NCBI GenBank assembly: GCA_025611195.1 | Contig: GCA_025611195.1_4718.1 | Direction: 5' to 3' (one strand) | DNA: 64,000 nt | Source: a phage | Shown: positions 15,219 to 61,614 of the stretch, one piece after another | How positions within the stretch are numbered: position 1 is the first letter of the stretch | Layout of the letters: the number at the start of each line of letters is the position of its first letter | Program-made: the position numbers and the translations under genes | The notes under the pieces: generated by a model | What the model was told of the DNA's origin: nothing | Database searches by the model: none | What the model saw: the letters and a program-made list of their open reading frames with translations, nothing else

Positions 15219-17441
15219 TCAGTTAGTCTGAACCGGCAGCTTGATGTTTTCAGTGTAGACCTTACGCAGGTTCACAACGTTAATCAGACCCAGCAGCGGG
15301 CAGTTGTTAACGAAGCGGCAGCGAGGCTGAACCATGGTTTCTTTAGAAACCTGACCGTTACGGGTAACCTGAGCAACAGATACCAGTTCCGGTACATACA
15401 GGAACATACCGAAGGTCAGCGGATCCGGAGAACCCTGGATACCACGAGACAGGGTCACGAAGATCTTATCACGCAGCAGGACGTTCGGGTTATCTACAAC
15501 CACGAAGTTGAAGCTTACACCAACGGTACGGAAATCACCATCGGTCTGCAGGAACTGCGGGATGTAGTTGTCGGTTGCTACTACGCAACGCGGTTTCTCA
15601 TCAGCGTTGGAAGACAGCAGCTGCAGAGCTGGCTGATAACCAGACTCGGAGTACATGCGATATGCCATCTCACGAATCACGTTCATGATCGCAGCGGACA
15701 CTTCGGCACGACGTTCTGCAGTGGTGGTACCCTGAACAGATTTCGCCAGGTCCAGATTGATTTCTTCGAACCACGGACGGATCAGGTAACGACCGAAACC
15801 TTCGATCTGGATATCACCGAACTGACGGAAGCGAGAGGTCGCAACCGCTTTCAGTGCATCTTTGTAGCTGAACAGTTTCTCAACCATCAGGTTGTCGAAA
15901 CGTGCGTTAGCAGCTTGGATCAGAACGTCCAGGTCAGCAGCGTTTTCTTCCCAATCCAGCGGACGAGGAATAGAGAACGGAGCCAGCAGGCCGATTGCGT
16001 AACGTTCTTGCTTCATGTTGAAGTCAAGGTGTTTACCACGTTCACGACGGTTGCTGTTGTTACGGCGAATACGCAGTTCGTAACCAACCAGTTTGAAGCT
16101 CAGGTCGTCAGCCAGGTCTTTAAATTCTTGGCTCTTACGCGGCTGTTCGATGTTGTCCTGATCAACCAGGCGATACAGTTCAGCGTTAGCACCGTTAACA
16201 CGCAGACCTGCTTTCTCTACGTTGGAAGAACCGTAAACTTCGATAGCCAGCTGAGCAGCAGATTTCGCATCGATGATGTCCTGCAGCGCTTCAGCTTTCG
16301 CGCCTTTAACGTCAACGGTGTTCTCATCAACGAAGATGGAGTGGGTGTCGAACGCCAGGGTCATTTTGCGGAAGTCGCCTTCCAGGGATTTCTGGAAACC
16401 GTTGGTAATCAGACCGGATACGTCGAACGGAACGTAAGAGGTCTTGCTGTGCTTGGCTGATTTGATTTCCACCAGGATTTTGGTCAGCGTGATCTGAGCA
16501 TCCAGCGCGTCGGTGTTGTCGCTGTAACCGTTAGCCAGAATGCTATCGTCTTCAGCGATACCGATCATGTCGATCAGTTTATCAACAGCCAGGTAAGACG
16601 TTTTGTAAGTTACGCCTTTGATCTCGATGTCGCGCGGAGCAACGATAGTTTTGTCAACGAAGTACTGCGCGTTAGCATCGTCAGCACGATAGATCGGATG
16701 CAGATCGGTCACGTCGTTGGACAGAACGTCGTTGTACATGAACGCATCCAGCAGCGGACGACGTACCCAATCAGCCGGAGTACCGTCAGCGTTACGACGC
16801 AGGTGGTTGAACACCAGCGGACGACGGAAAGATACATCATAACCGATCTGGTTCGGAGCCAGAACGATGGTGTTGTACAGTTCGTTACCCATGCGGCTCA
16901 GACGAGAAGCCTTCACGTTGAACACAACGGAGTACGGCATCATGTCACGCAGTTCTTTCTGGTCGTAGGACAGCTGAACCAGTTCTTCAGATTCGCAACC
17001 GCAGGAATCAGCAGCCATCATGACGAAGTTAGAGCTGTCAACTTCACGGCCAGACGGAGTGGTGCTGATGTTCATGGAACGTGCTTGTTTAGCATATTCC
17101 ACCGGGTTGCCATGAGCCAGCATGATCAGTGCTGCTGCACGAGCCTGCTGTGCGTTCATGGTGAACAGCTGTTCTTCAATACGCTGCTTCTCTTCCGGAG
17201 TGGTGGTTTCGAAGCCCAGCATGGACAGAACCGGTTCTTCTGCTTTACGGATGTCGCTGCTGAAGCTCTTAACATCCATATCGTTAACCAGTTTGTCCAT
17301 GGATTTGAAATCAACCTTAGAAGCAGATTCCATAGACAGGAAGGTGTTCTCCAGACCTTTGTCTGCTGGTTTGCTACCATTAGCGGTCAGGAACTGGCGA
17401 GTGGCCGCGACCTGTTGGCTAAGAAGGGTTTTATCATTCAT
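15219..17441 (-). CDS. putative major capsid protein (740 aa, phiKZ-like size class)
   Basis: AAAGGA SD before ATG 17441; codon usage strikingly different from neighbours (CTG, CGT, GGT, AAC, ACC, TTC dominate), consistent with very high expression. The antisense track ORFs 15144-16460 and 16698-17444 are by-products of that bias. Confidence 0.55.
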   Translation of the reverse strand: MNDKTLLSQQVAATRQFLTANGSKPADKGLENTFLSMESASKVDFKSMDKLVNDMDVKSFSSDIRKAEEPVLSMLGFETTTPEEKQRIEEQLFTMNAQQARAAALIMLAHGNPVEYAKQARSMNISTTPSGREVDSSNFVMMAADSCGCESEELVQLSYDQKELRDMMPYSVVFNVKASRLSRMGNELYNTIVLAPNQIGYDVSFRRPLVFNHLRRNADGTPADWVRRPLLDAFMYNDVLSNDVTDLHPIYRADDANAQYFVDKTIVAPRDIEIKGVTYKTSYLAVDKLIDMIGIAEDDSILANGYSDNTDALDAQITLTKILVEIKSAKHSKTSYVPFDVSGLITNGFQKSLEGDFRKMTLAFDTHSIFVDENTVDVKGAKAEALQDIIDAKSAAQLAIEVYGSSNVEKAGLRVNGANAELYRLVDQDNIEQPRKSQEFKDLADDLSFKLVGYELRIRRNNSNRRERGKHLDFNMKQERYAIGLLAPFSIPRPLDWEENAADLDVLIQAANARFDNLMVEKLFSYKDALKAVATSRFRQFGDIQIEGFGRYLIRPWFEEINLDLAKSVQGTTTAERRAEVSAAIMNVIREMAYRMYSESGYQPALQLLSSNADEKPRCVVATDNYIPQFLQTDGDFRTVGVSFNFVVVDNPNVLLRDKIFVTLSRGIQGSPDPLTFGMFLYVPELVSVAQVTRNGQVSKETMVQPRCRFVNNCPLLGLINVVNLRKVYTENIKLPVQTN

Positions 17442-17590
17442 TGAAAGTATCCTTTACAGAATTAACTTATATAAGTCGGTCGATAGACCATAGCGTACAC
17501 GCGTGCATGCGCCACTATAGTATCAGTAAACACTTACCGTTATTGAGGTTGTGATACAACACTAAAAATGCCGCATAACTTTTCCCTACG

Positions 17591-18211
17591 TCACAAACGA
17601 CGCAGGCGATAATGGATGGAACGATTGGTGCAATATGAACGGAACAGCGGCAATTGCGCAACTTCCGCAAGACTCATATTAATTCGCAGATGTTCAATAA
17701 CGGCGCTGTAGTTATCAGCAATACGATCGCTCAATAACTCTTCTGCCAATAAAGGAAGACAATCGACAACAATCGCGATCACATCCTCATTAACATAACG
17801 CACCCGAACACTCAACGGACGTTTGTCTGGGCTGTAAGTTGGATCCGCCAAACGACGTTCAATATCACGCGGATAGCTCGTCAGTAAATGGTAATAACCA
17901 TTGTCATAACGATTGATGTACTCACACAGCACATCAACATTCTTCTCCGACGGCAAACCTGTTTCGTCATAGTGATACGCAAACATACCACCAAGTAGGT
18001 TGTTAAGATGTACCGCAGGGTTCGCTTGTTCGTGTTCTTTCGTGATGAAGAAAGGCACGTTTTGGGCTGCGAAATAAAAACCTACATCATTGGGCGATAG
18101 TATGCCGAAAAGACTTTTAGGATCCAACAGCACCTGTAAGTCATCACGCGCATTTCGAATAATCGCGTGTTCTACCCAATTCGGAACGACGAGATATCGG
18201 AGTTCCTTCAT
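17591..18211 (-). CDS. hypothetical protein (206 aa)
   Basis: AGAGG SD before ATG 18211; divergent from the helicase gene. Confidence 0.7.
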   Translation of the reverse strand: MKELRYLVVPNWVEHAIIRNARDDLQVLLDPKSLFGILSPNDVGFYFAAQNVPFFITKEHEQANPAVHLNNLLGGMFAYHYDETGLPSEKNVDVLCEYINRYDNGYYHLLTSYPRDIERRLADPTYSPDKRPLSVRVRYVNEDVIAIVVDCLPLLAEELLSDRIADNYSAVIEHLRINMSLAEVAQLPLFRSYCTNRSIHYRLRRL

Positions 18212-18250
18212 TATGATTACCTCTTTGCAAGTATCGAAAGGATTGAGTCG

Positions 18251-19887: not shown

Positions 19888-19919
19888 CCCTCCTCCAACC
19901 CGTAAGGGAAGGAGGAGGG
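19888..19919. terminator. GC-rich hairpin between convergent genes
   Basis: ccctcctcc-aa-ccc-gtaa-ggg-aa-ggaggaggg; A10 run 19866-19875 upstream; TATG 19921-19924. Confidence 0.6.
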
Positions 19920-19934: not shown

Positions 19935-20261
19935 TTAACTTATCGTCATAAATTCGCTTGGTGAGAATTTCCAACCATTCTCATTGAGAAGTGTGTTGAG
20001 TTTCGCTGCGACGATAAGCCATGCATGCATAGCCGTTATGTCGTATTGGCGATTCACTCGACGTTGGTTTTCGATATTGATTTGCTCCTGTTCAGTGATG
20101 TTTGGATAGAGTGAGATAGCGCTGGGCTTACCCAACGCGCTAGTCATCACCGCAGTACATTCACTGATAATGTTGTTTAAGTGGTAGTTGTATACCGTTC
20201 CACGCATGACGCGATGACGGCATTCGATAATAGCGTCGTAAATGATTTCTCGAGTAATCAT
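19935..20261 (-). CDS. hypothetical small protein (108 aa)
   Basis: ORF between hairpin 19888-19919 and the next gene; weak SD. Confidence 0.55.
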   Translation of the reverse strand: MITREIIYDAIIECRHRVMRGTVYNYHLNNIISECTAVMTSALGKPSAISLYPNITEQEQINIENQRRVNRQYDITAMHAWLIVAAKLNTLLNENGWKFSPSEFMTIS

Positions 20262-20739: not shown

Positions 20740-21312
20740 TTAGACGATGAGTGACCAGGTGGTAAGCACACCGCTTGCGAATTCGAGCTTAAGACGTTTA
20801 CCGATAAGTTGTTGTTGAATCATCTTTTCAGTGATACGTCGATCTTGCTGAACCGCTTTATCAAACGCTTCTTTCGCTTCGGCTTGGTAGAAGTTCGTTT
20901 CTTCGTTGTCGTCGATCTCTTCGAGAGCGTCATCGTCGATGTCAGCAAGTTTCACTCGACCGTTTTCATCAGGTTGTTCTGCAGGCTCATTGTCATAAGG
21001 CGTGTCTTTTGTTGGTGCGACACGATGATGCAACTCGACCTGTGTTAACATGATCTCCATCTCACCATCGATAGGGATGATTTCATCGGCGCAGCCGTTT
21101 TCGGTCAGCTCTCGACTTTCCAGTAATGTCGTGGTGACAGAGAACACCTCTTCAACAGGAACCTCATCATCGTCGATAGTGTTAACCGTATTGCTGGTAA
21201 CTTCGGCAACGACCATCAAATCGAATGCGTGAGGATCACCTGGCATTTTGATTCCTGGAAGTTTGTTGAGGTACCAAGGATCGAGAATCATGATTTCTGG
21301 ATTAAACATCAT
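20740..21312 (-). CDS. hypothetical acidic protein (190 aa)
   Basis: GAAAGG SD before ATG 21312; Asp/Glu-rich. Confidence 0.65.
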   Translation of the reverse strand: MMFNPEIMILDPWYLNKLPGIKMPGDPHAFDLMVVAEVTSNTVNTIDDDEVPVEEVFSVTTTLLESRELTENGCADEIIPIDGEMEIMLTQVELHHRVAPTKDTPYDNEPAEQPDENGRVKLADIDDDALEEIDDNEETNFYQAEAKEAFDKAVQQDRRITEKMIQQQLIGKRLKLEFASGVLTTWSLIV

Positions 21313-21383
21313 TTTACCTTTCTATGTTAGGTGGATTGCGGATAGAAGAATCAATGCATAAACTAATTTAAGTTTGTTAAGGT

Positions 21384-22286
21384 TTACTTAGCCTTTGAGT
21401 TATGCGGACTAACATGCTGTTGTACTCGTTGGATTGTATCGTAGTACGGGTTAGATTGGTTGAACATGTTGTTGTGTGGGGGATAGCCATATGGCGCATT
21501 TTGCCTTGTTGGTGAGAAACCTTGTTGAGAAGGACGGTTTGAATTAACCGCGAGTACGTAGTAAACCAAATTTTGACGGTCGAATGTTCCTTCGTTTTTG
21601 AAAGTGTCGGCGTAGGCTTTTACCGCTGGAGTGAGCCTATCACCATCGGCTGTAATAATTGTACCGTCTGGGTAAACTTCCCGAACGACGCACCATGTTC
21701 CGATGAGAACATCTTTAGGTGCTGTATTACCATATCCGGTTGTAACGGTAAGGTAAGTATCGAACCCTTCAGAACAACAAGGATGACGATAGATGGGTCC
21801 TGTCATTTCCGTTCTATCGGTATCGCTACATTGTTCTATTGAGAGCGATGATGTGTCGGTTTTGAAATTGTCAAATTCTTTCTTTAAGTCGATTACGGGT
21901 TCTTTCGTATAGTACTTCTTGATTGCTTTGACGTAAAGATCAGGAACGGTTGTCAGCAATCCGTTATACCTGATTCTCAGGTTTTCGAGTAATCCAAAGA
22001 TGCTCGCGCATGCCTGTTCGCGAGGTTTTGTAAGATAAGAGATCCCCTCAGGAACGCTGGGATCTTTGAGAAAGAAGATTGCGTTATTGTCGTTGTGCGA
22101 TGCGTTGAAGAAAACGATTGATTCGATATATACGGAGCATAGGCTGTCATTGGCGTCGTCAGATAACACCCAGATGCACTCATCGGTCGTCTTGTTTAAA
22201 AGTTCTGTTTTGTCGACCAAACGTTGTTTCATTGCGAGGAAATGTGCCTGTTGTTCAGCAGTTAATTCACGATAAATAGTGGTCAT
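21384..22286 (-). CDS. hypothetical protein, Cys-containing paralog of 22372-23145
   Basis: AAGGAG SD before ATG 22286 (track start 22364). Shares (G/K)PIY(R/I)HP(C/E)C...YL(T/T)(V/I)T.G...REVYPDG(T/R)I with the upstream gene. Confidence 0.7.
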   Translation of the reverse strand: MTTIYRELTAEQQAHFLAMKQRLVDKTELLNKTTDECIWVLSDDANDSLCSVYIESIVFFNASHNDNNAIFFLKDPSVPEGISYLTKPREQACASIFGLLENLRIRYNGLLTTVPDLYVKAIKKYYTKEPVIDLKKEFDNFKTDTSSLSIEQCSDTDRTEMTGPIYRHPCCSEGFDTYLTVTTGYGNTAPKDVLIGTWCVVREVYPDGTIITADGDRLTPAVKAYADTFKNEGTFDRQNLVYYVLAVNSNRPSQQGFSPTRQNAPYGYPPHNNMFNQSNPYYDTIQRVQQHVSPHNSKAK

Positions 22287-22331
22287 GTTGGGCTCCTTGA
22301 TTACGATAAGGATGATTGCGGTTTTGTGGGT

Positions 22332-22364
22332 TTGGTAGGGCCCTAAACAAAGGAACCCTACCAA
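22332..22364. terminator. hairpin between the two Cys-containing paralogs
   Basis: ttggtaggg-(15-nt loop)-ccctaccaa, 9-bp stem. Confidence 0.4.
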
Positions 22365-22371
22365 TATTAGG

Positions 22372-23145
22372 TTAATCAGGATCGGCGTAGAAATGGTGAG
22401 GATAGCCGGAGTACGATCCTGCGTTACCGGCTATGGATTCTTTCTGGGAATCGACGACGAGCGCATAGAACTGTCGGGAATTTGTTAGCGTTGAGAAATA
22501 AGCGGAAAGGACTTTTTCATTCAATGCATCACAAGGTAGGCAGGTGCGACCGCAAAACGTCACGATACGGCCGTCAGGATAGATCTCACGAATCATTCTC
22601 CACTCACCGATATCCACTGGTGATGGCGCTGCTACACCACCTGTTATCGTTAAGTAACGATCGTACGTGGTATGGCATTCAGGATGAATATAGATCGGCT
22701 TGTTCGTTTCGACAGGTTCCGAAGTATCTCGACGACTAAGAAGCTCAACGACTTCAAGATAAATCGTTGGTAGATCGCGGAGAATACCGGTGCTACGACG
22801 TTTCTTTGTGATTCGCGGACGAATCTCGTTGAGAGCGTATTCGAGCTTACGTTCAGCTTCGTACGCATCGAGTTTTATCAAGCGACCCGGTTCATCGGAA
22901 TGATCCTGAGTTACGTAAACGAAATACGTGTCGCCTTTTGCAGCGTGAAAGATTCGAGCGACCTTAAATGTTTCTACGGTACGATAACCAAGGCGCGATT
23001 GATTTTCCACAGGAGAAAATATCCAATGCCGTCCTTCGTCAGCCTCAACAATTTCGTTGAAACTATCTGTCTGTTCTGGGACCTGGTAGTCAGCCAGTAA
23101 TGTGTCGAGAGCATCATCAGCCAGTTTGATGTAAATATCTGTCAT
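22372..23145 (-). CDS. hypothetical protein, Cys-containing paralog of 21384-22286
   Basis: GAGGA SD before ATG 23145; C-terminal KPIYIHPECHTTYDRYLTITGG...IREIYPDGRIVTFCGRTCLPC. Confidence 0.75.
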   Translation of the reverse strand: MTDIYIKLADDALDTLLADYQVPEQTDSFNEIVEADEGRHWIFSPVENQSRLGYRTVETFKVARIFHAAKGDTYFVYVTQDHSDEPGRLIKLDAYEAERKLEYALNEIRPRITKKRRSTGILRDLPTIYLEVVELLSRRDTSEPVETNKPIYIHPECHTTYDRYLTITGGVAAPSPVDIGEWRMIREIYPDGRIVTFCGRTCLPCDALNEKVLSAYFSTLTNSRQFYALVVDSQKESIAGNAGSYSGYPHHFYADPD

Positions 23146-23259: not shown

Positions 23260-23291
23260 CCCTCTCCCAACCCGTCAGGGAAGGGAGAGGG
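23260..23291. terminator. GC-rich hairpin (CCCTCTCCC family)
   Basis: ccctctccc-aa-ccc-gtca-ggg-aa-gggagaggg; immediately after the stop of 23296-24663. Confidence 0.6.
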
Positions 23292-24665: not shown

Positions 24666-25271
24666 TTAACGACCCCGTTGCTGTTGTTGAATGATGAATT
24701 CTTCGATCTTCGTGCCACGGAATTCGCTGTGACGAACTGCTTGCAGCTGCTCTTCAACGGTTGGACCAGCGTGGAGACCACCACGACGTGCACGGTTGAT
24801 GCCGATGCGACGACGTTGACCGATTTCACGCAAACGTGAAGATAATCCGCTCATTTCGGTTGGGTCTTTAATACGACCGCGTGCAACGTTCCACAGACCA
24901 CCCATGAACTCTTCGAGAATACGACTGGCTTCGAGAGATGGTACGCGTGCGTTAGGATCGTTTTCGAGATTGTATTTAACGTATTCCGTGTGTTCCAGAA
25001 GAAGCATGAACATCTTCATGGCGTTCACGTCAGGATTTGCAATACGCATAGGGACACCACGAGAATGCTTCTCAGCAGCCTGCGGTACGGTGAGCTGTGC
25101 GGGCACCTCTTCGTTCATGGTCATATCGTCGATTTCTGCAACCCCTGAAGAGTAGACACCGCTGACCTCATTGGTGTAATTGTCCACCATGAATTTACGG
25201 GGAATCCAGAATTCGAATTTACGTTCAAATAGACGTTTGGTTGGAGTATCTTTAACGTGTTGTAGACTCAT
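24666..25271 (-). CDS. hypothetical protein (201 aa)
   Basis: 4-nt overlap with the upstream gene (translational coupling). Confidence 0.7.
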   Translation of the reverse strand: MSLQHVKDTPTKRLFERKFEFWIPRKFMVDNYTNEVSGVYSSGVAEIDDMTMNEEVPAQLTVPQAAEKHSRGVPMRIANPDVNAMKMFMLLLEHTEYVKYNLENDPNARVPSLEASRILEEFMGGLWNVARGRIKDPTEMSGLSSRLREIGQRRRIGINRARRGGLHAGPTVEEQLQAVRHSEFRGTKIEEFIIQQQQRGR

Positions 25272-26584
25272 GGCTCAATAGCTCCTGCTCGTAACAGCAT
25301 AATAACGAACGGTGTGAAATAATAACGGTCCAGCGGAGAAAGCAACGGTAATGCGTCAACCATCTGTTTCAGTGCTGGGTGACTGATCGCTTTCTCATCG
25401 ACCATATCACGCACCATACTCTCAATGATTGTCATTGGGGCTTGGTTGCGATAGAAAGCCTCTGTGAAAACATAGTACGGATCGTCTGCTACCGATGGAA
25501 ATAACGGAACGTCGTCATACTCCATCGATGTATGATTGGTCACCAATGGGTTTGTCGGCGGTGTGTTTTCAGGCACAGCCAACTCTTTACCTACGTCTTC
25601 ACCGAGCGACGTGGTCGCAGGCCACATACAGAATCGCGCCCCGCTAAAACGAATCCCACCTGCAGCTGGGTACTGATAGAAACGCTTTGTTGACAACAGT
25701 GTGAATTTCACCGTCAACCGCGCCTCGTCTTCCCGACGTCCGTCCATGACCCATTCAAAGACAGAAATCGCGTTCGCTTCCTGGCTATCATCTACATTAA
25801 GACGTCCGAAGTTCCATGAGGGTTTTCCTTCAAGCGACGACCATAATTTCGTAAACGCGTTAACACACCAGGGGTCGTAGGTTGCAGCATCTTGACCAGG
25901 AACAAGCAGCGTGTTTAATTCACGGCTGTAAAATTCGTGGTAATACGCGTGACAAAGTCCCAGCGCACGACGGAGATAATCATACTTACGATTGTATTTC
26001 TCCGTTGCCATTACGGGATGTTTTCCGTGCTTTAACTGGTCTTGGTCGTACAGTGTATCCTCAACGATTTTCGCTTCCAGTTCGATAAGCTGTTTTTCGT
26101 CAAGAATACGCTGGAAGGAAATATCGCATTCGTAAGCCGGTGCTAAGCTGATGTTCTTCGGTGTGATTCTGGTGATAGTGTACACCGCGATACGATGATC
26201 GAGACCGGAGATTAACAGCATGTTACCTAAAAGAGGAACCGATACTGCCGGAAGTATACACGTACCCTCGGATTGAAAACGTGCGGTACCGTTGTCGTAC
26301 GACGGCGTCAATGACGACATTAACTTGATAGGGTAATGTCTGATACGACGGTACTGTTGTTCGGCGATATCGCGGTTAGCTTGAAAACTGCTTTGTTCAT
26401 CATCACGACCGAGAATCTGTTCGTAATAATCACATTCTACGGAATAACCGGATGCGTAATTCACCAGTCCGATTTGACTATTGTATTGCTCATCCACCAC
26501 CGCAGAACGATAAACATCGTCGCGAGCCTTCGCAGGCTGTTGGGGGTTGATGATGGGTTTCGCGGGCTTCTTAGCGAGCGCCAT
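25268..26584 (-). CDS. hypothetical protein (438 aa)
   Basis: GGAG SD before ATG 26584; overlaps neighbours by a few nt. Confidence 0.8.
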   Translation of the reverse strand: MALAKKPAKPIINPQQPAKARDDVYRSAVVDEQYNSQIGLVNYASGYSVECDYYEQILGRDDEQSSFQANRDIAEQQYRRIRHYPIKLMSSLTPSYDNGTARFQSEGTCILPAVSVPLLGNMLLISGLDHRIAVYTITRITPKNISLAPAYECDISFQRILDEKQLIELEAKIVEDTLYDQDQLKHGKHPVMATEKYNRKYDYLRRALGLCHAYYHEFYSRELNTLLVPGQDAATYDPWCVNAFTKLWSSLEGKPSWNFGRLNVDDSQEANAISVFEWVMDGRREDEARLTVKFTLLSTKRFYQYPAAGGIRFSGARFCMWPATTSLGEDVGKELAVPENTPPTNPLVTNHTSMEYDDVPLFPSVADDPYYVFTEAFYRNQAPMTIIESMVRDMVDEKAISHPALKQMVDALPLLSPLDRYYFTPFVIMLLRAGAIEP

Positions 26585-28563: not shown

Positions 28564-28585
28564 AGCCCACCCCGAAGGGCGGGCT
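28564..28585. terminator. imperfect GC-rich hairpin
   Basis: agcccacccc-gaa-gggcgggct with one A.C mismatch; CATA 28559-28562 and TATG 28589-28592 flank it. Confidence 0.45.
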
Positions 28586-42466: not shown

Positions 42467-45460
42467 ATGAGCGTAACCAACAAAGATCTTGCTGAACAGC
42501 TCAATCGCTATATGCTTTCACCTATTGAGATGCAGGCTGTTGCAAGCGATATGATCCGTTTGGCTTCTGATGGTGAATTAACCCTGGTTGACCCCAGCTG
42601 TCCGTTTGTTTATCTGCTGGAGGTTGCAACGGCGACGGCTGCGAACCAGAACGCACGGGATGAGTCCCGTGTTCGCGAACTGTATCCAAAACTTGCAACG
42701 AACTGGAATCAGCTCTATCGTTGGATGTATGATGAGTCGTACGTCGGACGTTTCGCAATGCCGGGTAAAACGGAAATCATTTATTCGTTAGGGTATCAGG
42801 AAATCCTCGATCGCGCTGTAGAAATTCCAAACACCGCTTCCTCCGATGATTTAAGCCGTTCTTACAGCCGTAAGTTAGTGATACCACGTACGACGGCGTT
42901 TACGGTAGCCGGAATGGATTTCGGGTTGCATTATCCCATCGAAATCCAAGTGCAGGCGCACGACCAGATACGCGTTGTTTATAACACGGATAACATCAGC
43001 CCGTTGCAAACCTTGGAGAGTAACCAAGTTGAGTATGGGGTTGTTCGTGTAAAAGCGGGCAAAGTGTTGGTGATGCGTATCCCGCTGTTCCAGTTTAAAA
43101 CGCTGGTAAAAGATGTGCCGTTTAACAGCGTTCACGGGATGAACAGCAGCATTACCTTCGAAGATCAGTTTTACCATTGTCGTGCGTACATGTCGTCGGA
43201 TAACGATACCTGGACGGAGATAGCGACAACCCACAGTCAACAGATCTACGATCCGTTAACACCGACCATCGCGTTACAAGTAGAAGGGAACAAACTTAAC
43301 TGGCGTGTTCCTGAAATTTATTTGTCTCAAGGTACGATGGATAAAAGCACCATTCGACTTGAGGTGTTGACGACGAAAGGGAAAATCAGCGTCGACCCGT
43401 CTGATTACGACGTGACCGATTGGAAAGATAACTACATCGATTTGTCACCAAAAGCCGAACAGAAATACAGTGCGCCGCTAAGTGCGTTCAACATTAAAGG
43501 GATTTATAGTGAAGGGGCGTTGTCGGGCGGACGATCCGCATTAACGTTCGAGGAGCAACGTGAACGCGTTATGGCAGGCGTGAACAAAACCAAGGTACCG
43601 ATCACGGGAACACAGGTAGAGCTGGTGCTTCAAGATGCGGGTTATGGGATGGTAACCACTATCGACAACGTAACAAATCGTTCGTTCCTGGCAACCCGAG
43701 ATTTACCGCAATTGAGCGACAGCGTGCCGCAGGCCGGTTCGTTGATGGGGTCTTTCTATACGTCAGCCGCAGCATTGGTGAAAAGTAAGTTTGTCGCCGA
43801 TAACGGCGATCGTATCACGATTAAACCTGACTGCCTGTATCGTGACAGTAACGGAAGTATCGCGCTGTTGTCAGACGATGAAATTGATCGTATTAATGCA
43901 GGCGACTCCGATGCGAAGTTGAACGCAGTAAACAACGCCATGTTGTTTTACAGCCCGTTTCATTACGTGTTGGATGCGACAAGCGATTTCGACATTCATG
44001 CTTATTACCTGGATGCTCCTAAGATCGGCACACAAGCATTCCTCGACGCGAACGAGACAATCCCGTTAACCGCTATGGTGACCGGATACCGTCTGGACCG
44101 TATCGCTGAAGGATATCGTCTAAGCCTCATCGTCGAAGGTAACGACGCATGGAAAGCGCTCGACGATAAAAACGTGCATGTGCAACTGGGATTCAATCCG
44201 CGGGGTGAGGGTGATTACGCAACGATGTTAGCATCGCCTACAACCGATGATGAAGGTCGTCGTTTGTTCACCTTCGATATCACCACGAATTATGATTTTA
44301 CACGAATCCTGGCTGATGATTCCACAGCGTATGAACCGTATATCGCACTGACGTCCTTCTCGATGTATGAATCCACACCACGCGATTACTGGGCGTCATT
44401 ACAACAGTACCTGGAAATCTTCCATGTGGTGACGGATTACGCGCCGGAAGATGTCGACGGTATTTTACACAGCGCTTCCGATAATTACCTGGTTAAGAAA
44501 CTTACGCTTCAAAATGGGTATTGTTTCTACCGTGAACGTCTCACCGCAACCTTTGGTTATGATCTGGATGGTCTTTGGATGCGCTCTCGTACGGTAGCCT
44601 CGGAGATTACGTATAAACGTTACACCGAGAACATTCCGTGGGTGTATGAAGAAGATATTCCAGCGACGGATGAGACCGGTTCGGTTATCATTGAGCAAGG
44701 TGAAGACGGTACGTTGTCGGTTAAATACCTGCATCGTAAAGGTGACCCGAAATTAAACAGTGATGGAAGCCAAGCCTATCGTTATCTGAAAGGCGACATC
44801 ATGAAAGATAATTACGGTAATCCGATTCCTGTCGATGAACGTGAAGTTCTGCGTAACCTGGACATGTTCTTTATCGATGCGTCGTATCTGCTAGCGAACG
44901 ATACTGACGTGATTGACTATCGTAATGCGATTCCTACGCAGCTTATCGAGTGGATCAAGAACGATATCATCACGTTCAGGAATTTCTGTTATGAGGAAAC
45001 GGAAATTTCACTGTATCCTAAACAATCGTTGGGGTATGTGGACGTTATTGTGGAGAACGGATTGGAAACGACGCTTCCTGCTGCCCTATCGTTTAACGTA
45101 ACGCTGTACTTACCGGCTAAGCAATACGCGGATTTGGATCTACGTCAAGTCCTTCAAGCGATGGTATCGAAAGTCATCAATAAATGCTTAACATCCCGTA
45201 CAGTGGCTAAAGCAGAAATGATCGCGATGATTCGTGAGGAAGGTGGCGACGACATCCTTAACGTTGAAATCGATGATTTTGGACCAGGTAAGAACCTCAG
45301 TGTTTATACCGCGAAGAACGACGGTGTTCGTTGTGCGGTGAAGAAAGAGCTTTATGTGAAAGCGGATGGTATCTTGTCCGTACGTGAAGCGATCGATGTA
45401 AGTTTTGTGAAACATGCACAAAGCAACAGTTCGGCATTAGCGCAAGGCCTTCGTGTCTAA
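42467..45460 (+). CDS. hypothetical large protein (997 aa), possibly structural
   Basis: Starts 4 nt after the previous stop; ends before hairpin 45482-45513. Confidence 0.8.
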   Translation: MSVTNKDLAEQLNRYMLSPIEMQAVASDMIRLASDGELTLVDPSCPFVYLLEVATATAANQNARDESRVRELYPKLATNWNQLYRWMYDESYVGRFAMPGKTEIIYSLGYQEILDRAVEIPNTASSDDLSRSYSRKLVIPRTTAFTVAGMDFGLHYPIEIQVQAHDQIRVVYNTDNISPLQTLESNQVEYGVVRVKAGKVLVMRIPLFQFKTLVKDVPFNSVHGMNSSITFEDQFYHCRAYMSSDNDTWTEIATTHSQQIYDPLTPTIALQVEGNKLNWRVPEIYLSQGTMDKSTIRLEVLTTKGKISVDPSDYDVTDWKDNYIDLSPKAEQKYSAPLSAFNIKGIYSEGALSGGRSALTFEEQRERVMAGVNKTKVPITGTQVELVLQDAGYGMVTTIDNVTNRSFLATRDLPQLSDSVPQAGSLMGSFYTSAAALVKSKFVADNGDRITIKPDCLYRDSNGSIALLSDDEIDRINAGDSDAKLNAVNNAMLFYSPFHYVLDATSDFDIHAYYLDAPKIGTQAFLDANETIPLTAMVTGYRLDRIAEGYRLSLIVEGNDAWKALDDKNVHVQLGFNPRGEGDYATMLASPTTDDEGRRLFTFDITTNYDFTRILADDSTAYEPYIALTSFSMYESTPRDYWASLQQYLEIFHVVTDYAPEDVDGILHSASDNYLVKKLTLQNGYCFYRERLTATFGYDLDGLWMRSRTVASEITYKRYTENIPWVYEEDIPATDETGSVIIEQGEDGTLSVKYLHRKGDPKLNSDGSQAYRYLKGDIMKDNYGNPIPVDEREVLRNLDMFFIDASYLLANDTDVIDYRNAIPTQLIEWIKNDIITFRNFCYEETEISLYPKQSLGYVDVIVENGLETTLPAALSFNVTLYLPAKQYADLDLRQVLQAMVSKVINKCLTSRTVAKAEMIAMIREEGGDDILNVEIDDFGPGKNLSVYTAKNDGVRCAVKKELYVKADGILSVREAIDVSFVKHAQSNSSALAQGLRV

Positions 45461-45481: not shown

Positions 45482-45513
45482 CCCTCCTCCAACCCAACAG
45501 GGAAGGAGGAGGG
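45482..45513. terminator. GC-rich hairpin between convergent genes
   Basis: ccctcctcc-aa-ccc-aaca-ggg-aa-ggaggaggg; CATA 45477-45480 and TATG 45516-45519. Confidence 0.6.
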
Positions 45514-45522: not shown

Positions 45523-48315
45523 TTATCTTACGTTGCTGCTATTCTGCTGTTCGCTGAACCAACAGTACACCTTGAGATCGGTACCGTATTTCAATGCGAT
45601 ATACGCATTCAGTGCGGCACAGAACAAAGACGCGAATGCCCATATCAGCGAAGGATCAACATCTTCCGTTACTACCGGGGGAGTATTATCCGGTTCCCAT
45701 GATGGAGAACTGTCCATGAACGTCGTGTACCATTCCCGCCGTTGTTCTTCAGTGGTAAAGTCGCTATGAGGTTCCAACGCTTCTTTTGCCAGACGTCGAT
45801 ATTCGAACATATGCGTTGCTAAAGCCGATGAGTTACCAGATTCGCCTTCATAGTTCGGATCCACCGCATAACAGAGTTCTGTGGAATTTAACAAAGCAAT
45901 CGCTTGTATGATGCTGTCGGCAGTGCCTGCACTATAGAGCTCGATAGACCGCGAAAGCTTTTCACAGAACGTATTTAACGCGGCAGGATTGGACACCTGA
46001 AGGTCGAGGCCTAATGTCCACGGATAGTTACTGAACACGCCCGTAAACCGCGGCATAACACCCAACAGATGTTGTCCGATTACGGCACGGTTATAAACAG
46101 CCCGGTTATAGACTTGAAACGCAGCCTCCAAGGCTTGGTTATAATGACGACGAAGTTCATCACGCGAGTTGCGGAATCTGTTTGCCGCAAGACTTGTGGC
46201 TGCGACGCTACAAACATCGTAATCGGTGGACGAGAGCACAGTTTCGTTAAGATCGAACGCTTCCTGTTTCAACGTTCCGCTAACAGCCGCTGCTTCGCTG
46301 TTTGCTTTATCGACAACTGTACTCAAAGCGTTGATGTAACGCTTAGCTCGGACCTCCAACCATTGTGCGATGCCGAGAATATCCACCGCAGCTTTAGCAA
46401 GGTCGCGTGCGTTCACGATTTCGTTCTTCAACGCACCTAAACCTTTATTCTCAGGCGATGAGGCTTGTTGACGAATCATGCTGTTCAACATGGTAAGCAG
46501 ATTATCCAACTCGTGTCCGCTGACCTTGTTACGCGCATCGGTAACTGGCCCTTGCAGGAATTTACGGCAACCATCGTTGTATCGAATCAGTTTATCCACA
46601 TCGATCGATTCGTTCGTGGATTCCTTGAACTGATCCTTCAATTCTTCACGGTAGTCATGGATTTCACTTGCGAGATTATCGATAGTGATACCATCGTGTC
46701 CAAGAAGAACTTTATTGAAGTTACCTTTCTCGAATGCAAGAGCAAGACCTTCACGAATCTTAGCGAGTTTATCCTGATCGAGTTCACGACCGTTCGATAG
46801 CTCTTTCACTTCCGAGCTGATTAATGCCGAAACGTTACCCAGATTGTCGGTAACCCCTTTGAACGCTCCCGACCAAATCGTTCCTGCTTCAGCGTATTTC
46901 GCAATGGTCTGAATACCGACGGTGTGCAGCGATGCTAAACGTTTCTTCGTGCCTTCGGTAAGCAATGCGTCTTTAGCTCGCGTAAGTTGACTGTTATTAG
47001 CTTCCGCCTGCTGAATCGCTGCTTTCGCACTTCCATTACGCCAGCTCTTAACCAGCCAATCAACCAAACGTTTTAGGATATTGACGGTGTATTCCATTGT
47101 CCGCCGTAACGTTTCCCACGCGCTTTCTGCGGTATAGATGCCGTACCCTTCCATCTTCGTTGGGTCAAAGAAACCTTCCTGCACGAGATCGGTACGTGTG
47201 TAGCCATCAGCAGCTTCTACTTCCGCCTGGGTTTTATCCCAGAAGTCGTCACTCTTTGCAGCAATCGCTGTATCTTTAACGTCCAGGATGATCTGACCAA
47301 CCGTTTGTGCAAACAGCAAGGCCGCACGTACCGATTGTGCGAACATCCGCTGATATTTGATTCGAACGCATTGCATCTGGGTTAGCAGATTCAGTTGTGC
47401 GATCCCATCCAAGGTGCTATCCTGAGCAAGCCCTTCGGCTTTAGCGATAACCTGTTTTACACGTTCAGCGACATCACCGTACTGCTGGCAAACATCCCGC
47501 AGAATACGTACCGCGAAGACCCCGGTACCGATATAGTTCAATAGGTCTTTTAACGACCATTCGGTCGGACAATCGGTCGGCGCAATAGGGAGTAAGCAAC
47601 CATCACCGTCCATGAATCTCTCTAATGCGTTAATATCCTGATTTTCTACGCTCATGGGGATATCGACATCAGCCGCTTGCAGATCCAGCATCTGTTGTAG
47701 GATGTTGGTATCGGCTTGTACAAGCGTCGCAAGCGCTTGGCTGTGTGCGATTATTGGTAACGCAGGCGACCATACTGCAGCAAGCTTGTCGACGTGACGT
47801 TGAATGGCATACCCCATATCCTCGATCACATCGGGATGCTCGATAACCCCCTGAAGCGTTTGATGTAGCTCACCGAGTTGCTGAGACAGATCGACCATCA
47901 TGGTGTTGAAGGTTTCGCCATCCTCTTTGTGGTTGTCCAGACGCTCGAGTTCATGTCGAAGCAATGTAACGAGCTGTCCGTTGCCTTCTTGCTTCAGCTT
48001 GCTTTCCATTAACGTAATGGCTTTATCGACGATCTGACACGCTTCACGAAAACCGGTTGTGGAAGGAAGCTCTGTCCATAACGCCAGCGGTTTACCGTCA
48101 AGGGCTTCCGGCATCGATAACGAAAGCATAGACAGTTGTTGACGTGATACTTGCTGTTCACGGTGTAATGTTTCTTTTAACGCCAGGAGATCGTCAAGAA
48201 ACGCGCCGTTAAGGGTGGTCGTACGCGGTGTTGAATTAATACCGTCAGTTAACGATTCAAGCACCAGGAGACCGTTATCAGCTGAAGAGAGTCCCGCGGC
48301 AAGATATTTGTTCAT
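45523..48315 (-). CDS. large inner-body-like family member (930 aa)
   Basis: GGAGTG SD before ATG 48315; contains DLVQEGFFDP...WETLRRTMEYTVNILKRLVDWLV matching the family helix. Confidence 0.75.
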   Translation of the reverse strand: MNKYLAAGLSSADNGLLVLESLTDGINSTPRTTTLNGAFLDDLLALKETLHREQQVSRQQLSMLSLSMPEALDGKPLALWTELPSTTGFREACQIVDKAITLMESKLKQEGNGQLVTLLRHELERLDNHKEDGETFNTMMVDLSQQLGELHQTLQGVIEHPDVIEDMGYAIQRHVDKLAAVWSPALPIIAHSQALATLVQADTNILQQMLDLQAADVDIPMSVENQDINALERFMDGDGCLLPIAPTDCPTEWSLKDLLNYIGTGVFAVRILRDVCQQYGDVAERVKQVIAKAEGLAQDSTLDGIAQLNLLTQMQCVRIKYQRMFAQSVRAALLFAQTVGQIILDVKDTAIAAKSDDFWDKTQAEVEAADGYTRTDLVQEGFFDPTKMEGYGIYTAESAWETLRRTMEYTVNILKRLVDWLVKSWRNGSAKAAIQQAEANNSQLTRAKDALLTEGTKKRLASLHTVGIQTIAKYAEAGTIWSGAFKGVTDNLGNVSALISSEVKELSNGRELDQDKLAKIREGLALAFEKGNFNKVLLGHDGITIDNLASEIHDYREELKDQFKESTNESIDVDKLIRYNDGCRKFLQGPVTDARNKVSGHELDNLLTMLNSMIRQQASSPENKGLGALKNEIVNARDLAKAAVDILGIAQWLEVRAKRYINALSTVVDKANSEAAAVSGTLKQEAFDLNETVLSSTDYDVCSVAATSLAANRFRNSRDELRRHYNQALEAAFQVYNRAVYNRAVIGQHLLGVMPRFTGVFSNYPWTLGLDLQVSNPAALNTFCEKLSRSIELYSAGTADSIIQAIALLNSTELCYAVDPNYEGESGNSSALATHMFEYRRLAKEALEPHSDFTTEEQRREWYTTFMDSSPSWEPDNTPPVVTEDVDPSLIWAFASLFCAALNAYIALKYGTDLKVYCWFSEQQNSSNVR

Positions 48316-48330: not shown

Positions 48331-48361
48331 CCTAGGGGAAGGTTTTCAGCCTTCCCCTAGG
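48331..48361. terminator. 12-bp perfect-stem hairpin between 48375-51179 and 45523-48315
   Basis: cctaggggaagg-ttttcag-ccttcccctagg. Confidence 0.55.
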
Positions 48362-54985: not shown

Positions 54986-55017
54986 CCCCTCCCCCTGGCG
55001 GAAGCCGGAGGGAGGGG
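54986..55017. terminator. GC-rich hairpin between the DNA polymerase fragment and the small-paralog operon
   Basis: cccctccc-cct-ggc-ggaa-gcc-gga-gggagggg; A-rich upstream, U-rich plus TATG (55027-55030) downstream. Confidence 0.55.
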
Positions 55018-55035: not shown

Positions 55036-55485
55036 TTAATTATTGTTGATGGGGTTATCGTCCGGCTTATATTCGATGCCGTAGGCGACGTAACGGTCTG
55101 TCGTATGGACGACAAGCGAGATGGGGAAATCATAATGCGTGGTTTTGTCTCGGACGAGCTGAGTAAAGAGATCCATATAACGTATTAAGTCTTCACTGGT
55201 GTAATCAGAAGGGAAGAAGACGTCGATGGTTATTGAATCTTCATAGAGGCGTATAACCAACTTATCCAGAAGGTCGGCATATTGGTTAGCCGGGGTGACG
55301 TCCAGCTCACAGATATCACGATCTCCTTCGTCTCGTGATACCCACATCATGGTATCCTGTAATGAGGTTTCAAGGATCTCGAAAATGCATTTTGCTGTAA
55401 GTTTTAGTTTATTTGTTACGTCATGGTTAGGTGAATAATGGTCACGGATGTTTTTCACTGCGTCTTTGATAGAGAAAGTCATCAT
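55036..55485 (-). CDS. small paralog family member 1 (149 aa)
   Basis: C-terminal DFPISLVVHTTDRYVAYGIEYKPDDN matches the family FP(I/L)xL...(E/H)YxPD signature. Confidence 0.7.
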   Translation of the reverse strand: MMTFSIKDAVKNIRDHYSPNHDVTNKLKLTAKCIFEILETSLQDTMMWVSRDEGDRDICELDVTPANQYADLLDKLVIRLYEDSITIDVFFPSDYTSEDLIRYMDLFTQLVRDKTTHYDFPISLVVHTTDRYVAYGIEYKPDDNPINNN

Positions 55486-56492: not shown

Positions 56493-56522
56493 CCCTTCCC
56501 CGGCCTGATGGCTAGGGAAGGG
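56493..56522. terminator. GC-rich hairpin inside the small-paralog operon
   Basis: cccttccc-cggcc-tgat-ggcta-gggaaggg; TATG 56525-56528. Confidence 0.5.
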
Positions 56523-56536
56523 GCTATGCTACGTTG

Positions 56537-60918: not shown

Positions 60919-60951
60919 ACTGCGTTAACAAGAAATAAAAACAGCATAAAA

Positions 60952-60989
60952 CCTCCTCCCCCATCCTTCAAGAGGACGGTGGGAAGAGG
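60952..60989. terminator. imperfect GC-rich hairpin
   Basis: cctcctccc-ccatcc-ttcaaga-ggacgg-t-gggaagagg with mismatches; minus-strand side followed by UUUUAUG and U-rich sequence. Confidence 0.4.
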
Positions 60990-60997: not shown

Positions 60998-61399
60998 TTA
61001 AATGTCGTGGACGGCAATGCCGTTTAACCAGCAATACAGCTTAACGCGACACGGATATCGCTTCGTTGCAGCAGCCATTTCATCGCGTAAACGCTGGTAG
61101 ATTTCATCCTGGTGTTCACGTTCAATGGGGTAATCAGCCCAACATTCGATCATGACGTCACCATTAGTCAAAATCGTCGTACGCATCCTGTCCTGGACAC
61201 GACGATCTTTCCCAGCATTAGGGAAATACATTCCTTCAGTACGAATAAGGTCGCCACAGGGCATGACTAACCATTCGTTCGTTTTGCTGGTATTCTTATA
61301 ATCCAATACAGCTTGCATTGCGGTGTCAACGCTAAAAGAAACATAATTCCAAACGGGGGTCCAACGATAGATTGCAGGTTGTTCAAGTGTTTCGTTCAT
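60998..61399 (-). CDS. hypothetical small protein (133 aa)
   Basis: AGGAAAAG SD before ATG 61399; TATG 49 nt upstream; bounded by hairpins on both sides. Confidence 0.65.
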   Translation of the reverse strand: MNETLEQPAIYRWTPVWNYVSFSVDTAMQAVLDYKNTSKTNEWLVMPCGDLIRTEGMYFPNAGKDRRVQDRMRTTILTNGDVMIECWADYPIEREHQDEIYQRLRDEMAAATKRYPCRVKLYCWLNGIAVHDI

Positions 61400-61456
61400 G
61401 AGGCGCTTTTCCTATTTTTTATTTTCTGCACAGGATAAATTCAACGGCATAAAGCC

Positions 61457-61484
61457 CTTCCCTGCCCTTATATGGGGCGGGAAG
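61457..61484. terminator. GC-rich hairpin with bulges
   Basis: cttccctgccc-ttatat-ggggcgggaag; CATA 61448-61451 and TATG 61488-61491. Confidence 0.45.
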
Positions 61485-61614
61485 AGTTTATGACCGCAAT
61501 GAGAATCTCTCACGACAAGCTCACGACGATTATCGCATCACCCCGCGAGTGAGGGAGATCAGGATCACCTCCTACGTCGTAATGACAGCAATCCTGTTAA
61601 CGTCGCCTTAGGCA

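What the first reader, a model, noticed from the sequence alone, without database searches (positions are those of the whole stretch)
17441..61491. Hairpins sit inside a larger dyad (CATA ... TATG), with TATG 42-49 nt upstream of several start codons
Many hairpins are flanked by CATA(A) on one side and (T)TATG on the other, so either strand reads hairpin-then-UAUG. For minus-strand genes the TATG G lies 42 nt (ATG 37155), 47 nt (ATG 28512), 49 nt (ATG 61399) and 48 nt (capsid ATG 17441, TATG at plus 17489-17492) from the start codon. As far as I recall, late promoters in phiKZ were reported as a short TATG element, so these could be combined terminator and late-promoter modules. The same dyad also occurs between convergent genes (8623, 45482), where no downstream gene exists, so the flank may instead be part of the terminator.
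Basis: partly seen in the sequence, partly recalled or inferred. Interest (0 to 1): 0.5.

Follow-up and report, generated by a model that had tools for sequence, protein, structure and literature searches.

The report
Phage terminator hairpins with TATG tails
In this giant E. coli phage (a close relative of Goslar), the RNA hairpins that end genes are nearly always followed by the four letters TATG, the same short signal that related phages use to start late transcription; the pattern is real and shared across the phage family, but it tracks where transcription stops rather than where the next gene starts.

Summary
The window is a Goslar-like chimallivirus (94-97% identical to Escherichia phage Goslar). 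Of 13 strong intergenic hairpins, 16 of 26 stem feet carry TATG within 7 nt (about 1.2 expected, P=1e-15), and the four cited distances (42, 47, 49, 48 nt) are exact.

Across the whole Goslar genome, TATG follows the stem in 40/62 tails that lie downstream of a same-strand gene end, against 6/36 other tails (p=6e-6). A gene downstream makes no difference (19/30 vs 21/32). The same CATAA-hairpin-TTTATG(Y)YGT architecture occurs in phiKZ, 201phi2-1 and Xoo-sp14, most often at convergent gene pairs (20/23). 

TATG is therefore primarily part of the family's terminator; the dyad is what a two-way terminator looks like. A second role as a restart promoter remains plausible:
- TATG is the validated phiKZ late-promoter core.
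- It is among the most avoided 4-mers inside genes.
- Tails followed by a gene more often read TATG-C-Y-G (15/19 vs 5/21).
- At four window sites it is the only promoter-like element before the next gene.

There is no sharp 40-50 nt peak genome-wide. No TSS data exist for this phage. This is a known kind of element, with a testable link between termination and initiation.

The parts
8623..8657 (.). Hairpin 1, between convergent genes 5685..8591(+) and 8674..8952(-). TATG on both feet: plus 8660-8663, minus-strand TATG = plus 8614-8617.
   Evidence: identical in Goslar
15086..15124 (-). Hairpin 2, just downstream of the major capsid gene. Minus-strand tail is TTTCTATGCCGT (TATG = 15082-15085); plus-strand TATG at 15126-15129. 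The fold is far more stable as minus-strand RNA (-29.7 vs -18.5 kcal/mol).
   Evidence: the same position after the phiKZ capsid gene gp120 reads GACATAGGCCCTCCCTTCGGGGAGGGCTTTATGTTGT
19888..19919 (.). Hairpin 3, between convergent helicase (+) and 19935..20261(-). TATG only on the plus foot (19921-19924); the minus foot has a T-run further out.
23260..23291 (-). Hairpin 4. Minus tail is GTTTATGCTGT (TATG = 23253-23256). An early-promoter-like motif lies between it and the next gene start at 23145.
28564..28585 (-). Hairpin 5 (annotated as a putative terminator in the Goslar record). Minus tail is TTTATGCTGT (TATG = 28559-28562; G is 47 nt before ATG 28512). Plus-strand TATG at 28589-28592, giving the full dyad GCATAAA...TTTATGC.
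34498..34529 (-). Hairpin 6. Minus tail is TTTATGGCGT (TATG = 34492-34495), 101 nt before start 34391. The plus foot reads GATATAG (no TATG).
37204..37235 (-). Hairpin 7. Minus tail is TTATATGCCGT (TATG = 37197-37200; G is 42 nt before ATG 37155). In Goslar the spacer differs (TTCTATGCCGC) but TATG is kept.
45482..45513 (.). Hairpin 8, between convergent genes 42467..45460(+) and 45523..48315(-). TATG on both feet: plus 45516-45519, minus-strand TATG = plus 45477-45480.
48331..48361 (-). Hairpin 9. No TATG on either foot. The stem ends 15 nt before the start codon of 45523..48315.
54986..55017 (.). Hairpin 10, between convergent DNA polymerase (+) and 55036..55485(-). Plus-strand TATG only at 9 nt from the stem (55027-55030); the minus foot has CATG.
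56493..56523 (-). Hairpin 11. No TATG on the transcribed (minus) foot in the window (Goslar has TATATG there). Plus-foot TATG at 56525-56528.
60952..60989 (-). Hairpin 12. Minus tail is TTTTATGCTGT (TATG = 60945-60948). An early-promoter-like motif lies between it and start 60823.
61455..61486 (-). Hairpin 13. Minus tail is CTTTATGCCGT (TATG = 61448-61451; G is 49 nt before ATG 61399). Plus-strand TATG at 61489-61492, giving the full dyad CGGCATAAAG...CTTTATGACCG.
17489..17492 (-). Hairpin-less TATG (GCTATGGTCT), 48 nt upstream of the capsid start. A second TATG (TTATGCGGC) lies about 133 nt upstream. These are candidate late promoters comparable in spacing to phiKZ P119L (G is 47 nt before the gp119 ATG).
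21357..21360 (-). Hairpin-less TTTATGC, 45 nt upstream of the start of 20740..21312.
11609..13405 (-). Gene for the homologue of phiKZ GP123, the nvRNAP beta-like subunit whose pocket binds non-template TATG in phiKZ.
   Evidence: BLASTP 24% identity, E=1e-56. Of 7 polar pocket residues, only S144, S334 and Q466 are identical.

Best explanation
The hairpins are factor-independent terminators of the phage's own multisubunit RNA polymerases, of the type shared by nucleus-forming jumbo phages (Chimalliviridae). The TATG belongs to their conserved 3' tail, consensus (U)UUAUG(C)YGU.

Proposed mechanism; only the anatomy is shown, the steps are inferred:
- The GC-rich stem, often with a conserved 2x2 U.U internal loop, folds in the nascent RNA.
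- The polymerase then sits on the weak, A/U-rich UUUAU hybrid.
- It pauses at the U|G step, which is pyrimidine at -1 and G at +1, as in the consensus pause of bacterial-type RNAPs.
- The transcript is released a few nucleotides past the stem. The G lies a median of 6 nt beyond the stem end.

Where two genes converge, the terminator must work in both directions, so the same tail is present on both strands. That is the CATA...TATG dyad.

The tail also contains the nvRNAP late-promoter core, with its G at about the release point. At same-direction gene pairs it probably doubles as a restart point for the next operon, especially in the extended form TATGCYGT. I rate this second role at about even odds for window sites 28559, 34492, 37197 and 61448. 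It is not the reason the motif exists.
For: Shown:
(1) All 13 window hairpins and 51 of 63 strong Goslar hairpins are intergenic and sit 4-30 nt after stop codons. Several are annotated as putative terminators in the Goslar record.
(2) At one-way sites the transcribed-strand RNA folds 1.7 kcal/mol better than the complement (27/34 sites, p=0.005). This indicates an RNA-level structure with G.U pairs.
(3) TATG within 7 nt of the stem occurs in 40/62 terminator-direction tails vs 6/36 others (p=6e-6), with no dependence on a downstream gene (19/30 vs 21/32).
(4) The same architecture occurs in phiKZ (16/64 tails vs 2.4 expected), 201phi2-1 (12/54 vs 1.4) and Xoo-sp14 (10/102 vs 0.8), with the highest frequency at convergent sites (20/23).
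(5) Between the window and Goslar, TATG is kept in 9 of 10 transcribed-strand tails, while the 1-4 nt spacer and the loops mutate.
(6) 201phi2-1 terminators carrying the conserved motifs terminate strongly in vivo (PMC11512511).

For the secondary promoter role: TATG is a validated late-promoter core in phiKZ. CATA/TATG is the 2nd-8th most under-represented of 136 4-mer classes in six chimallivirus sequences, vs rank 27 in T4. TATG[CG][CT]G occurs in 15/19 tails with a gene downstream vs 5/21 without (p=0.0012).
Against: - The tail is a poor canonical U-tract (3-4 U). A standard hairpin-plus-T-run scan did not pick these sites up, so termination by this tail is inferred, not shown.
- In phiKZ and 201phi2-1 the CATAAA complement is also frequent on the 5' side of one-way terminators (12/28 tails with neither role). 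A pure 3'-tail model does not explain this; it may reflect stem extension or two-way termination.
- SPN3US, another family member, uses plain T-runs and no TATG (1/114), so TATG is not required for termination in all relatives.
- Hairpins 9 and 11 in the window lack the tail.
- No 3'-end or 5'-end mapping exists for this phage.
Confidence: 0.6

Rival explanations
1. This is the first reader's main reading: the hairpin-TATG units are selected as combined terminator plus late-promoter modules. The upstream transcript ends at the hairpin, and nvRNAP initiates at the G of TATG to express the next operon.
For: - TATG with G=+1 is the phiKZ late-promoter core, necessary in vitro.
- A GP123 homologue is encoded in the window.
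- TATG is avoided inside genes, most strongly on the antisense strand (O/E 0.50, second lowest 4-mer; synonymous-shuffle z=-4.1 and -5.8).
- The extended TATG-C-Y-G is enriched where a gene follows.
- At window sites 5, 6, 7 and 13 it is the only promoter-like element between terminator and start codon.
- The spacing of 42-49 nt equals that of phiKZ P119L (47 nt).
- About half of all TATGCYGT copies in Goslar (19-21 of 40) sit directly after a hairpin.
Against: - TATG is equally frequent where no gene follows (21/32) and is commonest at convergent sites in three relatives (20/23), where initiation would only make antisense RNA.
- It is also present before genes that have their own early-promoter motif (window sites 2, 4, 12).
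- There is no sharp distance peak genome-wide.
- In phiKZ the extended YYGT also occurs at convergent sites.
- TATG alone is known to be insufficient for promoter activity.
Confidence: 0.3
2. TATG in the tail is a sequence-specific pause or release signal, read during elongation by the same beta-lobe pocket of nvRNAP that reads promoter TATG on the non-template strand. One protein-DNA contact would then serve both ends of the transcription cycle, leaving the enzyme poised to reinitiate.
For: - The G after UAU is specifically conserved rather than a longer U-run (about 80% G after TAT in terminator tails).
- The distance from stem to G is tightly limited (median 6 nt).
- The motif is lineage-specific (absent in SPN3US).
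- The phiKZ pocket binds single-stranded non-template TATG and belongs to the core enzyme rather than a detachable factor.
Against: This is entirely inferential. The pocket residues are only partly conserved in the window protein (3 of 7). SPN3US also shows TATG depletion yet has no TATG tails. Published 201phi2-1 terminators work with host RNAP in vivo, so no phage-specific reader is needed for termination as such.
Confidence: 0.2
3. The dyads act at the DNA level, either as cruciform-forming or protein-binding palindromes (for example helping strand opening at TATG, as with the hairpin promoters of phage N4 virion RNAP), or as copies of a spreading repeat whose flanks hitch-hike.
For: Seven window hairpins are near-identical (CCCTCYYCC-AA-CCC-loop-GGG-AA-GGRGRAGGG). 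What gives late promoters their specificity beyond TATG is an open question.
Against: - Fold stability is strand-asymmetric in the direction of transcription.
- TATG accompanies unrelated stems (sites 5, 12, 13 and many in Goslar), so it is not carried by one repeat.
- One-way sites usually lack the second half of the dyad in Goslar (6/34).
- P119L works without any hairpin on linear DNA.
Confidence: 0.05

Closest known systems
phiKZ late promoters (5'-TATG-3', G = +1), recognised by the non-virion RNAP (Ceyssens 2014 as cited in PMC7598289; Yakunina 2015 PMC4666361; de Martin Garrido 2026 PMC12809450)
   Same: The four-base element is identical. A homologous polymerase subunit is encoded in the window. 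The spacing to the start codon at four window sites (42-49 nt) resembles P119L (47 nt). TATG is avoided elsewhere in the genome.
   Different: P119L has no hairpin upstream. Here most intergenic TATGs abut a terminator stem and occur equally where no gene follows. No TSS has been mapped in Goslar-like phages.
Conserved terminator motifs of phiKZ (61 terminators, Putzeys 2024 PMC10914365) and 201phi2-1 (motifs A-E, with A+B lengthening the stem; PMC11512511)
   Same: My own scan of phiKZ and 201phi2-1 DNA shows the same CATAA(A)-GC hairpin-TTTATG(Y)YGT architecture. Stem-lengthening flanks and bidirectional terminators are described in those papers.
   Different: The published logos are figures I could not read, so identity with them is inferred. 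In the passages I read, those papers do not link the tail to the TATG promoter core. In Goslar-like phages the 5' half of the dyad is mostly confined to convergent sites.
Bacterial bidirectional intrinsic terminators (A-tract, hairpin, U-tract)
   Same: A GC hairpin after the stop codon, symmetric A/U-rich flanks at convergent genes, and RNA-level folding.
   Different: The U-tract is only UUUAU followed by an invariant G and often CYGU. A standard terminator scan misses these sites.
Consensus elemental pause of multisubunit RNAPs (G-10, Y-1, G+1; from my own knowledge of the E. coli literature)
   Same: GGG...UUUAU|G places a pyrimidine at -1, G at +1 and a G about 10 nt upstream.
   Different: Never tested for jumbo-phage RNAPs. 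The resemblance is a lead only.

Membership tests
Intrinsic (factor-independent) terminator | Stable GC-rich stem-loop shortly after a stop codon | tested here: met
   13 window hairpins, dG -21 to -30 kcal/mol, all intergenic and 4-30 nt after stop codons
Intrinsic (factor-independent) terminator | U-rich tract of about 7-9 nt directly after the stem | tested here: inconclusive
   The tail is (U)UUAUG(C)YGU, with 3-4 consecutive U at most. The consensus scan (>=5 T in 8) did not report these sites.
Intrinsic (factor-independent) terminator | Structure selected at the RNA level in the direction of transcription | tested here: met
   The transcribed strand folds 1.7 kcal/mol better at 27/34 one-way sites, p=0.005. 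Loops vary but stems are kept between the window and Goslar.
Intrinsic (factor-independent) terminator | Transcript 3' ends map just downstream of the stem | not testable with these tools
   No 3'-end data for Goslar-like phages. Supplements of relevant papers are not held.
phiKZ-type nvRNAP late promoter | TATG on the non-template strand with G as the transcription start | not testable with these tools
   The motif is present, but no TSS map was found.
phiKZ-type nvRNAP late promoter | Phage encodes the nvRNAP subunit that reads TATG (GP123 homologue) with its pocket | tested here: inconclusive
   The homologue is present (E=1e-56). 3 of 7 polar pocket residues are identical at 24% overall identity.
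phiKZ-type nvRNAP late promoter | Located upstream of (late) genes rather than elsewhere | tested here: not met
   TATG at stem feet is as frequent without a downstream gene (21/32) as with one (19/30). In relatives it is 20/23 vs 9/25. This applies to the set as a whole; a subset may still be promoters.
phiKZ-type nvRNAP late promoter | Motif avoided where initiation is unwanted | tested here: met
   Antisense O/E 0.50 (2nd lowest 4-mer), sense 0.72; synonymous shuffles z=-4.1 and -5.8. Rank 2-8 of 136 in six chimallivirus sequences vs rank 27 in T4.
Chimalliviridae conserved terminator motif | Same hairpin-plus-flank architecture in other family members | tested here: met
   phiKZ, 201phi2-1 and Xoo-sp14 all show it. 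SPN3US does not.

The most novel reading that the evidence does not exclude
The four-base TATG is a dual-use signal for the jumbo-phage non-virion RNA polymerase. [quoted passage not shown] With the bubble still open and the active site at the G, it also lets the same enzyme restart the next transcript. Termination and initiation would thus be physically coupled at operon boundaries. This would also supply part of the missing specificity of late promoters, namely a hairpin-adjacent context plus +2 to +4 CYG.
Probability: 0.15. Interest if true: 0.75.

Novelty: new member of a known kind. Interest (0 to 1): 0.42.

Why it matters
How the chimallivirus non-virion RNA polymerase picks its late promoters from a four-base TATG, and how it terminates, are both open questions. 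This analysis shows that TATG is built into the terminator tail in four distant lineages and is avoided inside genes. That gives concrete, cheap tests. Published phiKZ and 201phi2-1 TSS/TTS tables can be re-read for coincidence at hairpin-foot TATGs, and named positions in Goslar can be tested. For annotation, hairpin plus TATG is a reliable operon-boundary mark in Goslar-like genomes.

Tried and rejected
- The sigma-70 and canonical terminator scan did not report these hairpins because the tails are not T-runs.
- A strict Watson-Crick inverted-repeat search missed the main family because of its conserved 2x2 internal loop. I replaced it with RNAfold windows.
- My first automatic stem-end definitions mis-registered tails. 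I replaced them with folding in which TATG and CATA are kept unpaired.
- Mini-ORF idea (ATG after a purine-rich, Shine-Dalgarno-like arm): ORF lengths from these ATGs are as expected by chance (median 17 codons), so it is rejected.
- Fixed 40-50 nt spacing genome-wide is not supported.
- Hairpin-less TATGs upstream of genes show no common extended motif.
- GP123 pocket conservation is inconclusive.
- Looking for intermediate relatives for footprinting, the phage collection has only Goslar and then relatives at <=34% capsid identity. IMG/VR gave only 99-100% relatives.
- Literature: Ceyssens 2014 is not held. Supplementary TSS/TTS tables of the phiKZ, 201phi2-1 and Goslar RNA-seq papers are not held. 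I found no paper on nvRNAP termination.
Full report
**What the window is.** The window matches Escherichia phage vB_EcoM_Goslar (Chimalliviridae, Goslarvirus). Identity is 97.1% over the capsid region and 89-96% in other aligned blocks. An IMG/VR contig of 237.5 kb has a 100% identical capsid. Gene order around the capsid is the same as in phiKZ: helicase, gp119-like gene, major capsid (15219..17441, minus), two genes, then the homologue of phiKZ GP123 (11609..13405; E=1e-56). Nearly all genes are on the minus strand.

**Checking the observation.** On the minus strand the G of TATG lies 42, 47, 49 and 48 nt from the start codons at 37155, 28512, 61399 and 17441.

RNAfold windows find 13 hairpins that fold strongly on both strands, and all are intergenic. 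With TATG and CATA kept unpaired to fix the stem end objectively, TATG begins within 7 nt of the stem on 16 of 26 stem feet. From the intergenic TATG density about 1.2 are expected, P=1.3e-15.

Seven hairpins are near-copies of one another, CCCTCYYCC-UU-CCC-loop-GGG-UU-GGRGRAGGG as transcribed RNA. They share a conserved 2x2 internal loop, which is why a strict inverted-repeat search missed them.

The capsid TATG is not beside a real hairpin. The 42-49 nt spacing holds for these four cases only; other hairpin-linked TATGs in the window are 101-196 nt from the next start.

**What is known.** In phiKZ, late promoters are TATG with G as +1. Each base is needed in vitro, but TATG is not sufficient, and sequences downstream of +1 matter (PMC4666361). 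The non-template TATG is held in a pocket of the beta-like subunit GP123, and what provides the remaining specificity is unknown (PMC12809450; PMC7598289). Conserved terminator motifs and bidirectional terminators have been reported for phiKZ and 201phi2-1, and motif pairs that lengthen the stem terminate more strongly in vivo. I found no TSS map for Goslar. Supplementary TSS/TTS tables are not held.

**Genome-wide test in Goslar.** I assembled the full Goslar genome with its 247 annotated CDS and found 51 strong intergenic hairpins. Each of 98 stem feet at 49 of these sites (two atypical sites left out) was classed two ways: whether a same-strand gene ends just upstream (terminator direction), and whether a same-strand gene starts downstream (promoter-eligible). 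TATG within 7 nt of the stem was counted in each class:

| Class of stem foot | TATG within 7 nt |
|---|---|
| Terminator direction and promoter-eligible | 19/30 |
| Terminator direction only | 21/32 |
| Neither | 6/34 |
| Promoter-eligible only | 0/2 |

Terminator direction matters strongly (40/62 vs 6/36, p=6e-6). A downstream gene does not (p=1.0). The G lies a median of 6 nt beyond the stem.

At one-way sites the transcribed-strand RNA is on average 1.7 kcal/mol more stable than the complement (27/34 sites, p=0.005). The structure is therefore selected as RNA.

Between the window and Goslar, loops and the 1-4 nt spacer before TATG change at several sites (GTTTATG/CTTATG, TTTATG/TTTTATG, TTATATG/TTCTATG, TTTTATG/TTCTATG). 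TATG itself is retained in 9 of 10 transcribed-strand tails.

**Relatives.** phiKZ shows the same arrangement. After its capsid gene the sequence reads GACATAGGCCCTCCCTTCGGGGAGGGCTTTATGTTGT, and after gp097 it reads CATAACGGGGAGCC...GGCTCCCTTTTATGCTGT. The counts of tails with TATG in the first 11 nt are:

| Phage | Tails with TATG | Expected |
|---|---|---|
| phiKZ | 16/64 | 2.4 |
| 201phi2-1 | 12/54 | 1.4 |
| Xoo-sp14 | 10/102 | 0.8 |
| SPN3US | 1/114 | 1.75 |

SPN3US uses long T-runs instead. In the first three phages the consensus extends to a long dyad, ACRGCATAAA-stem-TTTATGCYGT. Classified by context, TATG is commonest at convergent sites (20/23). It is less common where a gene follows (9/25) or where neither role applies (12/28).

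The validated late promoter P119L is a hairpin-less TATG whose G is 47 nt before the gp119 start.

**Evidence that TATG is also read as a promoter signal in this phage.**
- Inside the window's genes TATG is depleted. On the antisense strand O/E is 0.50, the second lowest of all 4-mers after CTAG; on the sense strand it is 0.72. Against synonymous-codon shuffles z is -4.1 and -5.8.
- CATA/TATG ranks 2nd to 8th lowest of 136 4-mer classes in the window, Goslar, phiKZ, 201phi2-1, Xoo-sp14 and SPN3US, against rank 27 in a T4 control.
- Aligned at TATG, tails followed by a gene read TATG-[C/G]-[C/T]-G in 15/19 cases against 5/21 at tails with no gene downstream (p=0.0012).
- Of 40 TATGCYGT copies in Goslar, 19-21 lie directly after a hairpin. 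The rest are scattered in coding sequence at about the chance level.
- In the window, hairpins 5, 6, 7 and 13 are followed by no other promoter-like element before the next start codon. Hairpins 2, 4 and 12 are followed by a separate, strongly conserved motif that I read as the early (virion RNAP) promoter.

Several points weaken the promoter reading:
- The extended YYGT also occurs at convergent sites in phiKZ.
- The five Goslar exceptions are all plus-strand tails reading into the ends of minus-strand genes.
- Hairpins 9 and 11 are followed by genes with no TATG at all, so read-through must occur.
- Genome-wide there is only a broad, modest excess of sense-strand TATG 31-55 nt before starts (41 vs 27, P=0.007) and none specifically at 40-50 nt.

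**Conclusion.** The feature is the family-typical terminator. Its 3' tail contains TATG, and the dyad is what results when termination is needed in both directions.

**Mechanism.** The mechanism I propose is inferred from the anatomy and from general knowledge of bacterial-type RNAPs: hairpin folding, a weak UUUAU hybrid, a pause at U|G, and release about 5-9 nt past the stem. The more novel possibility is that the nvRNAP pocket that reads promoter TATG also reads it at terminators and couples release to restart. This is compatible with the data but untested. Conservation of the pocket residues in the window protein is inconclusive (3 of 7).

**Rejected ideas.**
- Mini-ORFs starting at the ATG are ruled out.
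- A single spreading repeat carrying its flanks is ruled out, because TATG accompanies unrelated stems.
- A DNA-level palindrome is unlikely given the strand asymmetry of folding and the hairpin-less P119L.

Noticed in passing
window 15032-15046, 23202-23216, 60892-60906 (all minus strand): A second, much longer conserved intergenic motif, TTTCACG(G/A)C-TA(T/C)ATTAC-YTAGGTGA, lies between a terminator hairpin and the next gene. In Goslar the strict pattern occurs 8 times, all intergenic and all on the minus strand, including about 80 nt upstream of the nuclear shell gene chmA (an early gene). The core TATATTAC sits in the same kind of context in phiKZ (for example after the gp120 terminator) and 201phi2-1. 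It is probably the early (virion RNAP) promoter.
   Followed up: partly
window 21361-23140: About 1.8 kb with two ORFs (21384..22364, 22372..23145) has no counterpart in Goslar, which has only about 90 nt there. It sits directly behind the early-promoter-like motif at 23216 and a terminator hairpin, like an inserted promoter-plus-genes cassette.
   Followed up: partly
window 53187-54938 (+): The DNA polymerase gene is uninterrupted here (583 aa). In Goslar the same protein is split (residues 1-499 and 499-583) by a 1.76 kb insertion carrying the NUMOD1/HNH endonuclease gene gp069. The window phage is therefore the insertion-free (intron-less) allele.
   Followed up: partly
window hairpins at 8623, 19888, 23260, 34498, 37204, 45482 (and Goslar copies): This near-identical hairpin family has a pyrimidine 5' arm and a purine 3' arm on both strands, plus a conserved 2x2 internal loop (U.U/U.U in the minus-strand RNA, A.A/A.A in the plus). 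The tetraloop varies between the window and Goslar (TGAC/TTAC, TGTT/TTAC, TTAC/TCAC) while the stems stay fixed. The reason for the conserved internal loop is unexplained.
   Followed up: no
window 25298-25301 (minus strand): A TATGCTGT without a hairpin lies inside the 3' end of gene 25268..26584, 27 nt upstream of the start of 24666..25271. It is conserved at the same place in Goslar (G at 51814) and is a possible internal promoter.
   Followed up: no
window 48331-48361 and 56493-56523: Two strong hairpins abut the next gene's start (about 15-25 nt) with no TATG or other promoter-like motif on the transcribed strand. The downstream genes must be expressed by read-through, or these hairpins have another role such as 3'-end protection. 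In Goslar the second site does carry TATATG.
   Followed up: no
window 55031-59181: This block of small minus-strand genes is only patchily similar to Goslar (89-92% in short stretches, none in between), unlike the 94-96% elsewhere. It is a variable region.
   Followed up: no
whole window; loci L003, L008, L009, L010: Besides CATA/TATG, the palindromes CTAG (O/E 0.50), GATC (0.70), TATA (0.70) and GGCC (0.75) are the most under-represented 4-mers. SPN3US shows GATC at 0.43. Salmonella phage SPN3US ends its genes with hairpins followed by long T-runs and lacks TATG tails, although TATG is equally depleted in its genome.
   Followed up: no
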